From the NCBI GenBank assembly GCA_964016885.1, contig OZ024742.1, forward strand, positions 212,784,001 through 212,848,000: a stretch of 64,000 bases of DNA. The letters are read 5' to 3'. Below the pieces are notes generated by a model. That model was not told the origin of the DNA, made no database searches, and worked only from the letters and a program-made list of their open reading frames with translations. Both the position numbers and the translations under genes were made by a program. Numbering within the stretch: position 1 is the first letter of the stretch; every line of letters begins with the position of its first letter. Source of the DNA: Eledone cirrhosa. Its lineage: Eukaryota. Below are positions 51,780 to 60,306 of the stretch, piece after piece.

Positions 51780-54700
51780 TAAATATTGTTATACTTTGGG
51801 AGGGTCATATTACCAATAAGAAACACACGCACTAGTTGCTTTCACTCCAATTTATTATAAATTAAATTATAAATTAAAATTTTTTTTAATAAATTTCCGG
51901 TTGGTTGGTTCCACAACCGGACGGTTGTTCATATATTGTCAAAGTTCTTTCGTCACACATTCTGTGACCTCATCAGTCACCGGGGATTCTTTTCTTTGTT
52001 TTGTGCCTCTCCTTTGTTCTGTCCTACGCCATCTTGTTTTTGTGTGTGTTGTGTGCTTAGTTTGCGCATGTGTTACATCCGGGTGTCCGTATGTGTTTTT
52101 ATTTGTTTATTTATTTGTTTATTTACATGTTACTAGTTGGTTGTTTGTTCTATGTGTGTGTGTTTTCATTTTGTCCTTAATTGTAAGTTGTGATGTTGCT
52201 ATTCCATTCATGTTTTCTATTTAATTTTGGTTGGAGTTCATTTATGTTTATTGCCTCTGTGATTTATCTAAACATTGCGTCTTTTCTGTGTGCAGATTTT
52301 ATTTTTATTTCTATGTTCTCTAATTTGCCCTTATGTTCTATTTTAGCATGTTGGTGGAGTACTGATGATTCTTTTCTATCTTGAATCTCTCGTCAGTGTT
52401 CATTTAATCGTTCTCTTATACTACGAGCTGTCTCAACTATGTACATTATATTCTTATCTTTACATTGTCCCTCAGTACACCTTATGCTATATACTATGTT
52501 TCTAGTTTTACAGTTAATATGGGGGCTTAGTTTACAGATTATGCATTTCTTATCTATACAGGGAGGTCTTTGAAAAGGGTATGTATTACTAATAAGTGTT
52601 TTTATGGTGGTATCTGGTCTTTCCACTATCTTAATATTTAGTTTAAGTTTATCTAGGGCTCTTCTAAATTTGTAAGCTTGTTCACCTCTAGGGGTTGTAT
52701 TGATGAACATTACACTCTGGTATTTATTGCTATCATACCATGAGTTTATTCTATTAACCTTATTCCTAGTTCTTTCTATTCTATTCCAAAATTTACTCCT
52801 ATACAAGGGGCAGGTCCCATTTGTATCATTAATTACCATTTTTTCCCATTTGGTTCTGGCTTCTCTATATACTCTGATTTTATCTATATGATTGTAACCA
52901 GAGAACTGCATACGGTGGATGAAGTGTTGTATGTGTCTCTCTAGTTCTTTGGGGTTGCACATGCGGGACACGTTCCTCATCACCCGTACTAAATCCGCAA
53001 TCAGTATGTTGATTTTGGTGTGATCCGAAACAGCTGAGTTTCGGTGGATCAGGTATTTGGAAGTCATGGGTTTGGCATAATGGGTATGGAGGATTTGTTT
53101 TTTGTTATCAATGGTTTCTAACCAGAGTTCTGTGTCTAGTACAGGTAATCGATGGTTGGGGTGTTCGCTTGGGTAGTCTCTAGTAATTTTAATACTCTGG
53201 TGGATGGAGTTAGCTATTTGCTGGATGCTTTCCATTGTGTTTTTCTCTAATTCCTGACTGTTCTCTAGTGGGGGTGTTTTTACTACGATGTTTATATCAT
53301 CAACGTAGCGGGAGTACATAATCAGGGTTAAGAGGTTGTTGTCTTCTAATTGTTCTTTAAGTTTATTGTCCCACCATACCATGAATAGGTTAGCTATGTC
53401 ACCTGCAATGGCTGCTCTCTCTTCTTGGGCATATGTTTTTCCATTAAATTTGAACATATGTTCCTTAAGGGTTAGTTTTATACTGGCCCCCACCGCATGT
53501 GCAATCATTTTTTTTATAGTTCATCTGGTTTTCAGGGGTCCGTATGGCTCTGGTCCACCCGCTCCATCTTTCTGTGTGGGTTTTTTTGGCCATTGAGGTA
53601 ATGGCAGGTGGTCTGCCTCTTGCTGGCCTTGTGGGACAGAGGTTGCTAAGGTCATACGTATCTAGATAATCATTATTATATGTAAGTTTAAGTAGAAGTC
53701 CCAGCTCACTGGTATCAATCCCACGGAATTCAACATTGCTCTCACTAATCATTTCCACGCATTTCTCCACAGCAAAATTCACATCAGTGGATGGGTATAG
53801 GGACACTACATCCATACTACCTATTATACAGTCTGTAAGGTCCTTAGACAGGTTATTTTCGCTGATTCTGCTGAGGAGGTCCTCCGTGCTGTCACATATA
53901 TCCGGGATATTTCAATGATGGGGCGTATGATCAGGGAGAGGAAGTAGGAAAGTCTGTAGTTGCTAGCAATGTTAGCTCCACAGACTGGCCGTGTTGGTGG
54001 TCCTGTGACTGGGTCACTGTTCGTCTTATGGTCTTTTCGAAGCCCATACGACGCTGGCACGTCATTGTTCCAGGCCTGGAAGTTGTTGGCAGTCCGTTTA
54101 TTGGGCTGCATTATGTTTGTCCACATCATCATATGAGCGTTGAGGGTTTTCTCCCTATCCTCATGCTCTTGTGGTGTTACTTCTCTTGTGTTAGTGATGT
54201 GGGGTTGCATTGCCTGGATATAGTTTGACAGACTGTCAACCGACATTCTGCCAGACTTGTCTGTTGGAAAGCATGCAATCTCTCCATTACATGAGCGCTG
54301 CATGAGCTTACGCAAGCCATTTGCAGATTTTTCTCCCAGTTGCTGGGCCTCCATTCTACTTTGCCTCTTGCTATACTGTTCTATAATATTTCTAAGTTTA
54401 GATCTAGCTATATTAAATTGTGCTTCTGTTTGTTCATCGACCTGCGACGGCAATTGTGTGCGTTTTTTAAAAGCTAAAGTCGTGGCGTGGACTCATTGTA
54501 AGTCGAAGGACATATCAGAAGGATTATAAAAAGTAGAATTCCAGGTTGCGGTGTGTGTTCTATTGCTATTGTTAGTTGTGTTGTTGTTTCTATTTTTATT
54601 TCCACCAACTGCCTCATGGTTGTTTCTATGTCTCTCATTGTTACTCCTGTCTCTTCCTTCTGGCTCATTGTTACTATCTAGTCTATTTTGTGTGTCTGTG

Positions 54701-55675
54701 TGTTCGTCCTGGTTATTTTCTCAGACATTGTCAATAGTCTTTCTACTTCTCTCATTGTTATTACAGTCCCTCACCTCTGTGTTACTGTCATTATCTGTTT
54801 TCTGTGTCTGTGTGTCTGTTAAAATTGTGGTGGTGGTGAGAGGCATAGGATGTGTGTGTGTTGTTGTTGTTGATGTGTGTTGTTGTTGATGTGTGTTGTT
54901 GTTGTTGTTATTGTTGTTGTCTCTGTATGTTGTTATTATTGTTGTGTGTGTTGTTGTTATCGTTGTTTGTGTCTGTGTGTCTGTTGTTGTTATTGTTGTT
55001 GTCTTTGTGTATGTTGTTATTATTGTTGTGTGTGTTGTTGTTATTATTGTTATCGTTGTTTGTGTCTGTTGTTGTTGGAATGTGTGTTGTGCGTGTGTGC
55101 GTTTGTTGTTCGTGTTGTTATTTTTGTTTGTGTTTTTGTTGTTGTTGTTTTTGAGGCTCCAACGTAATTTTGTAAATGATTTTTCTATTTCCGACAAGCA
55201 TCTTATCATATTTACCTTATTATATGTGGAATATTTAGGTGGTAGCTGTAAGATGGATAATTCATCAGAGTCCACTGTAGTGATGCCGTATATATTTGTG
55301 TTGTTGTTGTTGAATTCGTCCGTTAATGAGACGTCAGCCATGCTTATACCATCAATCCTATCTGGATATTATTTATCTCTATTCTCTGAAGTTTCTTGGT
55401 TTAGTTTCATCTGTTTGAGCCACGTTAATTTATTGTTAAAGTGTTTGTTGCATTCTTGGATGATGTACTTTTTTTCTTCATGTATAATGTTTATGTATTC
55501 TAATTTTTCTTTTGGTGTAGTGATCTTAGTTATTTCTTGTATTAGGTTACGCTTATGTTTTTCTTGACTTAATTCTCTGTAAATCTTTTTTATGTTTAGA
55601 ATTAGTGTTCGTTTTAGCCTGCTTGTTTTTTGGTAAGTTGTAATCTACTTACATCGGTGTTGATGGTGTTGGTGT
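51780..55675 (-). mobile_element. near full-length Penelope-like element (RT + GIY-YIG + 3' pseudo-LTR)
   Basis: PTDKSGR, YGLRKDHK, DVVSLYPS, RYVDD, LPVLD, C..C..C..NIVYSIRC..YIVETARSIRERLNEH; frameshifted; TA-rich flanks. Confidence 0.92.
51938..51980 (-). ncRNA. minimal type I hammerhead (family alpha, copy A)
   Basis: GTGA-CTGATGA-G-GTCACA gaatg TGTGAC-GAAA-GAAC-TT-TGAC. Confidence 0.75.
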
Positions 55676-58739: not shown

Positions 58740-60054
58740 TTTATATTATATATTTATATACAATATATATTATTTATATATTATATGTTATATATAATAT
58801 ATATATATATATATATGTATATATATATATAATATATATATATATATATATATAATATATATATATATATATATATATAATATATATAATAAATATATAT
58901 ATAATATATATATATATGATATATATATATATATATATATATATATATATGGTATATATTATATATAATACATATGCATATTTATATATAATACATATGC
59001 ATATATATATATATTATATATATATATATAATATATATAATATATATATACATATAATATATATATATACATATAATATATATATAATATATATATATTT
59101 AATATATATACATATATAATATATCTACATAATATATATATATATATATATATACATATAATATATATATATATATATATATATATATATATATACATAT
59201 ATTATATATATATATATATATATATATACATATAATATATATATATATATATATATAATTATATATACATATAATATATATATATATATATATATATATA
59301 TACATATATATATATATATATATACATATAACATACATATATATATATATATATATTATATATATATATATATATATATATATATATATATAACATACAT
59401 ATATATATATATATATATATATATATATAATATACATATATACATATATATATAATATACATATAATATATATATATATATATATATAATATACATATAT
59501 ATATATATATATAATATACATATAATATATATTATATATATATATAATATACATATAATATATATATATATATATATAATATACATATAATATATATATA
59601 TATATATATATAATATACATATAATATATATATATATATATATATAATATACATATAATATATATATATATATATATATAATATACATATAATATATATA
59701 TATATATATATATATATATATATAATATACATATAATATATATATATATAATATACATATTATATATATATATATATATATATATATATATATATATATA
59801 TATATTATATATATATATAATATACATATAATATATATATATATAAATTACATATAATATATATATATATATATATAATATACAAATAATATATATATAT
59901 ACACATATAATATATATATATACATATATATAATATATATATATACATATATATAATATATATATACATATAATATATATACATATAATATATATATATA
60001 TAATATATATATAATATATATGTATATATATATATATTATATATATATATATAA
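58740..60054. repeat. (TA)n-derived array with TAATATACATATAA variant units
   Basis: directly visible. Confidence 0.95.
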
Positions 60055-60306
60055 ATGGCGTAGGACAGAAGAAAGGAAAGGCACAGAAACAAAGAAGGAA
60101 TCCCCAGTCACTGAAGAGGTCACAGAGTGTGTGACGAAAGGACTATGACTATATATAAACAACTATCTGGTTGTGGAACCAACCAACCAACCAGAAATTT
60201 ATAAATTTGTAAATTTGTAAATTTATAAATATATAATAAATTGAAGTGAAAGCAACTGGTGCGTGTGTTTCTTATTGGCAACATGACCCTCCCAAAGTAT
60301 AACAAT
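60054..60306 (+). mobile_element. solo Penelope pseudo-LTR (copy C)
   Basis: closely similar to the reverse complement of 51780-52032; (TA)n on both flanks. Confidence 0.88.
60106..60150 (+). ncRNA. minimal type I hammerhead (family alpha, copy C)
   Basis: AGTCA-CTGAAGA-G-GTCACA gagtg TGTGAC-GAAA-GGAC-TA-TGACT; perfect stems I and II. Confidence 0.82.

What the first reader, a model, noticed from the sequence alone, without database searches (positions are those of the whole stretch)
51938..60150. Hammerhead family alpha: covarying stems, extra core nucleotide and almost no stem III
Three copies (51938-51980 minus, 58316-58361 minus, 60106-60150 plus) keep CUGANGA and GAAA while the stems covary: stem II GUCACA/UGUGAC versus GUUGCA/UGCAAC, stem I AGUCA/UGACU versus CUACCA/UGAUAG. 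All have an extra nucleotide between A9 and stem II, and only G(A/G)AC between GAAA and UH, giving CUU or CUA cleavage triplets. That 4-mer is not the usual palindrome, so a dimer would need tandem A.A or G.A pairs (inference). This looks like an atypical, possibly undescribed, minimal hammerhead variant of PLEs.
Basis: partly seen in the sequence, partly recalled or inferred. Interest (0 to 1): 0.75.

Follow-up and report, generated by a model that had tools for sequence, protein, structure and literature searches.

The report
Penelope hammerhead with mismatched dimer stem
The three motifs are hammerhead (self-cutting RNA) folds in the tail ends of a very abundant Penelope-type jumping gene; two of their three odd features are already published for such elements, and the one twist is a third stem that is not self-complementary and would have to pair through purine-purine mismatches when two copies likely join to cut.

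Summary
The three motifs are real (3 found, 0.01 expected by chance) and lie in the terminal repeats of a Penelope-like retrotransposon with a Neptune/Nematis-type zinc-finger linker; the genome holds 32,225 matches. The extra nucleotide after A9, the long stem II and the near-absent stem III are the published consensus of Penelope hammerheads (Cervera and de la Pena 2014), so they are not new. The non-palindromic linker is a true family trait, not decay: about 21,700 GAAC, 3,906 GGAC and 848 GAGC copies, plus a wobble-palindrome GAUU branch (about 5,600); strict palindromes are about 1% and scattered. Most likely two copies in a tandem transcript pair through a six-position helix III with tandem purine mismatches and cut slowly: GGAC and GAGC self-duplexes are known imino G.A helices, and GAAC is predicted as weak as published AAUU. 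Cutting is untested; insertion ends give no clear trace of it and no RNA data covered the motif. The key paper on such variants (Lunse 2017) could not be read. Verdict: minor new variant of a known kind.

The parts
51937..51981 (-). Hammerhead copy 1 (subfamily A, linker GAAC, triplet CUU; extra G at 51969; linker 51947-51944; predicted cut between 51942 and 51941); stem I damaged by a G.G clash
51783..55679 (-). 5'-truncated, broken Penelope-like element carrying copy 1 in its 3' terminal repeat; 85% identical to a near-complete copy (L057); both ends in or beside (TA)n
   Evidence: blastn; junctions
52393..55368 (-). Broken ORF (four pieces): N-terminal region, reverse transcriptase (YVDD), CX4CxxC linker, start of GIY-YIG endonuclease
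   Evidence: homologues carry weak RVT_1 and GIY-YIG hits
58316..58361 (-). Hammerhead copy 2 (subfamily B, linker GAAC, triplet CUU; extra U at 58348; predicted cut between 58322 and 58321); stem I of 2 proximal pairs, then mismatch
57885..58753 (-). 3' fragment of a subfamily B element carrying copy 2, with the long tail, ending at (TA)n; interrupted by a short dispersed repeat at about 58031-58178
60106..60150 (+). Hammerhead copy 3 (subfamily A, linker GGAC, triplet CUA; extra G at 60118; linker 60140-60143; predicted cut between 60145 and 60146); intact, identical to family copies
60053..60307 (+). Solo 3' terminal-repeat fragment carrying copy 3, inserted in (TA)n, ending just inside the first codons of the ORF start
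55675..61731 (.). (TA)n-rich microsatellite array that holds copies 2 and 3 and abuts the 5' end of element 1; the insertion target

Best explanation
The motifs are minimal type I hammerhead folds in the terminal repeats of a Penelope-like retrotransposon, and they likely cut slowly only as a pair, two copies on one tandem transcript being predicted to swap strands and build one shared helix III (A-U, G-C, two purine-purine mismatches, C-G, U-A). Shown: identity and position of the motif, family-wide linker states, tandem elements 4.1-4.6 kb apart. Inferred: dimer folding, mismatch pairing (imino G.A for GGAC and GAGC, A.A for GAAC), cleavage after UH, and a role in cutting unit-length RNA out of read-through transcripts, probably followed by ligation, since inserted copies run straight through the cut site. 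The three window copies belong to three separate insertions and are not partners of each other; copy 1 is probably dead.
For: Motif sits 200-280 nt after the RT-EN ORF and 180-220 nt before the next start codon in tandem elements. 32,225 genome matches, control 0; only 17 lack the extra nucleotide. Subfamilies A and B are 67% identical in protein and 54% at 117 four-fold sites, yet in 12 aligned copies all 13 core positions are invariant and stem II keeps 98.6% paired cells with two double-sided changes. The pair next to A15.1-U16.1 is G-C or G-U in 12 of 12. A 1-bp hairpin costs +5.6 kcal/mol; self-duplexes give GGAC -1.7, GAGC -0.4, GAUU +0.2, GAAC +2.4, inside the range of published palindromic minimal helices (ACGU -1.7, AUAU +1.6, AAUU +2.2). 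Active dimer -12.4 per strand versus -6.0 for the monomer in copy 3. (GGAC)2 and (GAGC)2 form imino G.A pairs flanked by Watson-Crick pairs by NMR (PMC5900564 passages). A 35%-identical relative has a palindromic CUAG in the same slot (L229). Minimal PLE hammerheads show no monomer and low dimer cleavage in vitro (PMC4209133).
Against: No cleavage was observed. The commonest and probably ancestral linker, GAAC, is the weakest of all 16 G-NN-C self-duplexes. The active dimer lies 6.5-7.4 kcal/mol above the dimer minimum for intact A copies and 10-16 for B copies; monomer folds are no more stable than shuffles (z -0.35 to -1.69). Overall identity of the motif between A and B copies (74%) is little above the ungapped flanks (71%, 67%). 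3' ends lie 160-270 nt past the cut site (85 of 104 A, 38 of 47 B copies). Copies that begin at the cut site are rare (54 junctions by eye among 96 matches, against 19 among 28 at a control site) and none of 22 inspected runs on into the ORF. Only about 10 of the first 100 GGAC copies have a same-strand neighbour within 5 kb (read). Covariation rests on few lineages.
Confidence: 0.55

Rival explanations
1. The fold is kept as a structural or protein-binding signal (for the element's RT-EN or for RNA packaging) and cuts little or not at all; the linker drifted from a palindrome because helix III no longer matters.
For: GAAC is the worst self-pairing G-NN-C yet the most numerous; insertions run through the cut site; B-type stem I has only 2 proximal pairs; PMC4209133 itself leaves functions other than cleavage open.
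Against: All catalytic positions and U16.1-H17 (H = U, A or C, never G among the expanded subfamilies seen) are kept across A, B and a third subfamily; G15.2 always keeps a partner at 16.2.
Confidence: 0.22
2. Each motif cuts as a monomer: A15.1-U16.1 (plus G-C around a 2-nt loop) closes a purine-rich tetraloop stabilised by Mg2+ or a protein, so self-complementarity is not needed.
For: Would explain directly why the palindrome was lost; most copies have no nearby same-strand partner; B and C subfamilies have an interrupted stem I with a purine-rich internal loop that could make a tertiary contact.
Against: Hairpin cost +5.6 kcal/mol; published minimal PLE hammerheads show no monomer activity; axolotl and newt motifs with a 1-bp stem III need dimers (PMC7229834 passages); expanded linker changes all improve self-pairing.
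Confidence: 0.15
3. The motif cuts with a different partner in trans, such as another hammerhead family or a host RNA with a linker complementary to GAAC (GUUC).
For: The genome holds other hammerhead families according to unchecked scan notes.
Against: A search for G-NN-Y linkers with other stem II sequences found 11 matches against 10 in the control; GUUC did not appear among the listed rows; sibling heterodimers are predicted no better than +0.4.
Confidence: 0.05

Closest known systems
Minimal and variant hammerheads in pLTRs of metazoan Penelope-like elements (Cervera and de la Pena 2014, PMC4209133; parts 1-2 of 4 of the text and parts 1-2 of 3 of the supplement read)
   Same: Type I; CUGANGA plus an unpaired nucleotide between 9 and 10.1; G10.1-C11.1; long helix II; short helix I; tiny helix III; location in the terminal repeat after the RT-EN ORF; many dispersed single copies. 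The Drosophila virilis variant (2-bp helix I, 6-bp helix II, 2-nt insert in helix III) and the shrimp GCGC and Oikopleura GAUC rows have the same 4-nt slot.
   Different: Published consensus is palindromic at 15.2-16.2 and loop 3; none of the 56 rows of Fig. S3, as I parsed the extracted text, has G-purine-purine-C. Here GAAC, GGAC and GAGC make up about four fifths of the copies. The extra nucleotide is often G here, where their consensus has H.
Short-stem-III hammerhead variants of PLEs that cleave as dimers (Lunse, Weinberg, Breaker 2017; not read, seen only as title and as cited in PMC6765202, PMC6466107, PMC7761336)
   Same: Diminished stem III, PLE association, dimer cleavage.
   Different: Citing reviews describe the loop as palindromic; whether non-palindromic variants are among that paper's motifs could not be checked.
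Double hammerheads of newt/axolotl satellite retrozymes and avocado sunblotch viroid (passages of PMC7229834 and PMC6466107)
   Same: One or two base pairs in stem III; activity through merged stems III.
   Different: They keep canonical helix sizes and loop 1-loop 2 contacts, and the axolotl loop is a palindromic tetraloop; they are non-coding repeats or viroids, not the tail of a coding element.
EN+ Penelope-like elements of the Neptune/Nematis type (Craig et al. 2021, PMC8557442; passages and supplement parts 2-3 read)
   Same: C-terminal GIY-YIG with CX2-5CxxC linker and CCHH pattern, partial tandems, inverted 5'-truncated copies, a tail at one end only, (TA)n targets.
   Different: Tail here is about 60 nt rather than 30-40; ORF about 1,200 codons with an Asn-rich stretch; clade not placed on a reference tree.

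Membership tests
Hammerhead ribozyme, type I | Conserved core C3 U4 G5 A6 G8 A9 / G12 A13 A14 A15.1 / U16.1 H17 | tested here: met
Hammerhead ribozyme, type I | Helix II closed by G10.1-C11.1, supported by compensatory changes | tested here: met
   98.6% cells paired, 2 pairs with double changes in 12 sequences; few independent lineages
Hammerhead ribozyme, type I | Helix I open-ended, flanking the core | tested here: inconclusive
   4-5 bp in subfamily A; 2 proximal bp plus a distal helix in B; broken in window copy 1
Hammerhead ribozyme, type I | Match to an Rfam hammerhead model | tested here: not met
   no hit at E<=10; a library miss for a 45-nt minimal motif, not evidence against the fold
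Hammerhead ribozyme, type I | Site-specific self-cleavage after H17 | not testable with these tools
   only contigs were available and RNA contigs did not cover the motif
PLE minimal hammerhead (Cervera 2014) | Unpaired nucleotide between 9 and 10.1 | tested here: met
   32,225 with, 17 without
PLE minimal hammerhead (Cervera 2014) | Located in the pLTR of a Penelope-like element | tested here: met
   tandem units of 4,147 and 4,592 bp with a motif at each boundary
PLE minimal hammerhead (Cervera 2014) | Palindromic 15.2-16.2 and loop 3 | tested here: not met
   outer G-C pair is palindromic, inner two nucleotides are not in GAAC/GGAC/GAGC; GUAC+GCAC 143, GAUC 166 copies only; met with wobble in the GAUU branch
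EN+ PLE, Neptune/Nematis type | RT followed by CX2-5CxxC linker and C-terminal GIY-YIG with CCHH | tested here: met
   CIDKKCITC linker, VYSIRC...C...YIGET, two His downstream; definition
EN+ PLE, Neptune/Nematis type | Partial tandems, inverted 5'-truncated copies, tail at one end, microsatellite targets | tested here: met
EN+ PLE, Neptune/Nematis type | RT phylogeny with named Neptune or Nematis references | not tested
   no named reference proteins were returned by the search
Non-LTR retrozyme | Non-coding 150-400 bp tandem repeat with canonical hammerhead | tested here: not met
   the repeat unit is a 4.1-4.6 kb coding element

The most novel reading that the evidence does not exclude
A hammerhead lineage whose dimer interface is deliberately weak: a tandem A.A helix III kept since before two subfamilies diverged to 67% protein identity, with successful offshoots moving only to other weak self-pairing states (GGAC, GAGC, GAUU) and never to the strong palindromes one mutation away (GUAC, GAUC). 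Helix III would then be a rheostat that limits how much Penelope RNA is cut, and it would show that double hammerheads need no palindrome, so palindrome-filtered surveys miss whole families.
Probability: 0.2. Interest if true: 0.6.

Novelty: new variant of a known kind. Interest (0 to 1): 0.32.

Why it matters
The role of hammerheads in Penelope elements is still open, and reviews state that dimer cleavage needs a palindromic loop III. A family of over 26,000 copies with young, recently mobile members and non-palindromic linkers is a natural test: either mismatch-paired helix III is enough for dimer cleavage, or these elements move without efficient cleavage. The four natural linkers form a ready-made graded series for one assay. 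Beyond that the finding is an ordinary retrotransposon tail.

Tried and rejected
Rfam scans: no hammerhead model hit. Pfam on the window's broken PLE ORF pieces: nothing at E<=0.01; the assignment rests on motifs and homologues. RNA evidence: two RNA runs with 5-9% of the words covered only the region upstream of the motif, as contigs; no statement on transcription or cleavage is possible. Genomic trace of cleavage: a 2.8-fold excess of junctions at the cut site over one control site (54 vs 19, by eye) is confounded by AT microhomology with (TA)n and inversion partners and was not counted as support. Other hammerhead families with G-NN-Y linkers: at control level. A palindromic ancestral subfamily in this genome: GUAC and GAUC rows scatter over all subfamilies; rejected. 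Metagenome relatives: 9 loci, 4 with sequence after the ORF, 1 with a readable hammerhead. That the three window copies are each other's dimer partners: rejected, three insertions, two subfamilies, opposite strands. Literature: searches gave no description of a non-palindromic minimal PLE hammerhead; Lunse 2017 and Arkhipova 2017 are not held, and their supplements may bear on novelty.
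Full report
OBSERVATION. The three motifs are present as described. A pattern for CUGANGA-N-stem II-GAAA-NNNN-UH finds exactly these three in the window against 0.01 expected in 100 shuffles; a relaxed scan adds only three loose U3-type candidates that lack a UH and helix I geometry by eye. Stem II is a perfect 6 bp in all. Rfam has no hammerhead hit at E<=10.

CONTEXT. Copy 1 lies about 200 nt after the end of a broken reverse transcriptase-endonuclease ORF; the element spans 55679-51783 on the minus strand, 85% identical to a near-complete genomic copy, and is 5'-truncated at a (TA)n run. 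Copies 2 and 3 are separate 3' fragments inserted in the same (TA)n array. [quoted passage not shown] The best named homologue is an Octopus vulgaris protein at 69% (172 hits, 120 listed), so the host is likely a cephalopod. Tandem elements with a motif at each boundary occur at 4,147 and 4,592 bp spacing. The terminal repeat ends a few codons into the ORF start, at two fixed points 60 nt apart, one on each arm of inverted insertions.

FAMILY CENSUS (3.0 Gb genome; counts are exact-pattern matches). Any 4-nt linker: 32,225, control 0. GGAC 3,906; GAGC 848; GAUY 5,725, of which 98 of the 100 listed are GAUU; the remainder, 21,746, is mostly GAAC (a looser pattern gives 26,197 for GAAC plus GGAC). 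GUAC plus GCAC 143 and GAUC 166 occur on every subfamily background and scatter over the tree, as expected for point mutants. Without the extra nucleotide: 17. So both the extra nucleotide and the non-palindromic linker were in the master elements. In a tree of 63 of the 159 sampled copies (those with a complete 3' flank, at most 8 per type; motif excluded), A and B split at 100/100, GAAC is in both, the GAUU clade (98/95) nests among B-GAAC copies, and GGAC copies have end branches of 0-0.013; most inner forks are unresolved and the bootstrap had not settled. GAAC is therefore the simplest ancestral state (inference), and young copies exist for GAAC, GGAC and GAUU; GAGC is older. Contigs of a second organism label cover the motif with no listed change in the GGA of the GGAC linker (run X7).

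SELECTION ON THE FOLD. A and B are 67% identical in protein and 54% at 117 four-fold degenerate sites. In 12 aligned copies from three subfamilies the 13 core positions are invariant, stem II has 98.6% paired cells with two double-sided changes, and 15.2-16.2 is G-C in 10 and G-U in 2 (slid controls 19-41% paired). Against: these are few independent events (pairs with double change: 201 of 500 shuffles reach the value), stem I is 78% paired, and raw identity over the motif (74%) is close to that of ungapped flank columns (71%, 67%), although the flanks are full of indels (48% with gaps). In B and C, helix I appears bipartite: 2-3 proximal pairs, a purine-rich internal loop, then a distal AUAG/CUAU helix.

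WHAT IS ALREADY KNOWN. Cervera and de la Pena 2014 (PMC4209133; text parts 1-2, supplement parts 1-2 read) list as hallmarks of PLE hammerheads the nucleotide between 9 and 10.1, G10.1-C11.1, long helix II, short helix I and a palindromic 15.2-16.2/loop 3; they describe a Drosophila virilis variant with 2-bp helix I, 6-bp helix II and a 2-nt insert in helix III, and report no monomer and low dimer cleavage. Four-nucleotide linkers GCGC, GAUC, UAUA and CUAG are in their Fig. S3. None of its 56 rows, parsed from extracted text that had lost a column, shows G-purine-purine-C; one coelacanth row reads C/A and so is not palindromic. Reviews call the palindrome a requirement (PMC6765202, PMC6466107 passages); Perreault 2011 says 'the vast majority' (Fig. 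S8 text). The hammerhead table of Craig 2021 holds no such linker. Lunse 2017, the most relevant paper, could not be read. Literature searches found no description of this variant; the preprint 10.64898/2026.07.22.740005 (parts 1-2 of 5 read) concerns retrozymes.

MECHANISM. A monomer would need a 1-bp hairpin (+5.6 kcal/mol). As a double hammerhead, A-NNNN-U pairs with itself: GGAC -1.7, GAGC -0.4, GAUU +0.2, GAAC +2.4, against -4.8/-5.0 for GUAC/GAUC and -2.5 to +2.2 for the published 2-nt palindromes (intermolecular initiation included). (GGAC)2 and (GAGC)2 form imino G.A pairs between Watson-Crick pairs by NMR (PMC5900564 passages), so those two linkers are self-pairing in a non-Watson-Crick sense. 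GAAC is the weakest of 16 G-NN-C words. For copy 3 the active dimer is -12.4 per strand against -6.0 for the monomer, but 6.5 above the dimer minimum; for B copies the gap is 10-16. A 35%-identical metagenomic relative has a U3-A8 core, the extra nucleotide and a palindromic CUAG in the same slot (L229; 1 of 9 loci), which fits an origin of the slot as a dimer interface. I commit to slow dimer cleavage on tandem transcripts (0.55).

GENOMIC TRACE OF CUTTING. None clear. 85 of 104 A copies end at +190-197 or +256-257 and 38 of 47 B copies at +242 to +308 from C3, with the cut at +35; 6 of 151 alignments stop within 12 nt past the site and were not inspected. Copies that start at the cut site are few: 54 junctions by eye among 96 matches against 19 among 28 at a control site 10 nt upstream; all 22 inspected junction loci (of 30 fetched) are short 3' fragments, 19 of them inversion arms. 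Templates therefore span the site: uncut, re-ligated or circular RNA (inference). RNA runs gave no cover of the motif.

VERDICT. Real feature; known kind; one modest, family-wide, testable deviation whose novelty depends on a paper I could not read. Interest 0.32.

Noticed in passing
window 52023-52035(-), about 58392-58404(-), 60053-60064(+); all subfamilies: A box AA(G/A)ATGGCGTAG 50-60 nt upstream of the hammerhead is conserved between subfamilies A and B; it resembles a YY1 site (motif recalled, not tested) and many 5' ends and inversion junctions fall near it, copy 3 starting right at it. Candidate internal promoter or start site.
   Followed up: partly
subfamilies B and C, e.g. L051:2270-2340, L012:1481-1556: Helix I is interrupted by an asymmetric purine-rich internal loop 2-3 bp from the core, where subfamily A has a continuous helix; a possible tertiary-contact site.
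   Followed up: partly
3' ends of elements: Two fixed 3' end points 60 nt apart, both inside the first codons of the ORF at AT-rich words that match (TA)n; inverted two-armed insertions carry one of each.
   Followed up: partly
window 61963-63086(+) and 63230-64000(-); also 44674-45932(+): Remnants of a different Penelope-like element (RT pieces and an inverted endonuclease piece with a CxC-X5-C linker); no hammerhead found by my scans.
   Followed up: no
L042/L043 (G000:C1:14380500-14397500): Array of four GAUU-type motifs at 4,145-4,147 bp spacing plus an inverted partial copy; the units seen share the same frameshift in the ORF.
   Followed up: partly
L229:2418-2465: U3-A8 hammerhead variant with extra G, 4-bp stem II and palindromic CUAG linker behind a related PLE ORF in a metagenome contig.
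   Followed up: partly
window 33014-38414(+): Two-ORF non-LTR retrotransposon with an 863-aa endonuclease-RT frame (Pfam RVT_1 and Exo_endo_phos), largely intact.
   Followed up: no
window 10906, 16292, 27144, 27374, 31122, 31301, 44515, 47567, 58031: Nine copies of a short dispersed, SINE-like repeat; one sits inside the element that carries hammerhead copy 2.
   Followed up: no
window 60999-61110: A long near-perfect inverted repeat inside the (TA)n array.
   Followed up: no
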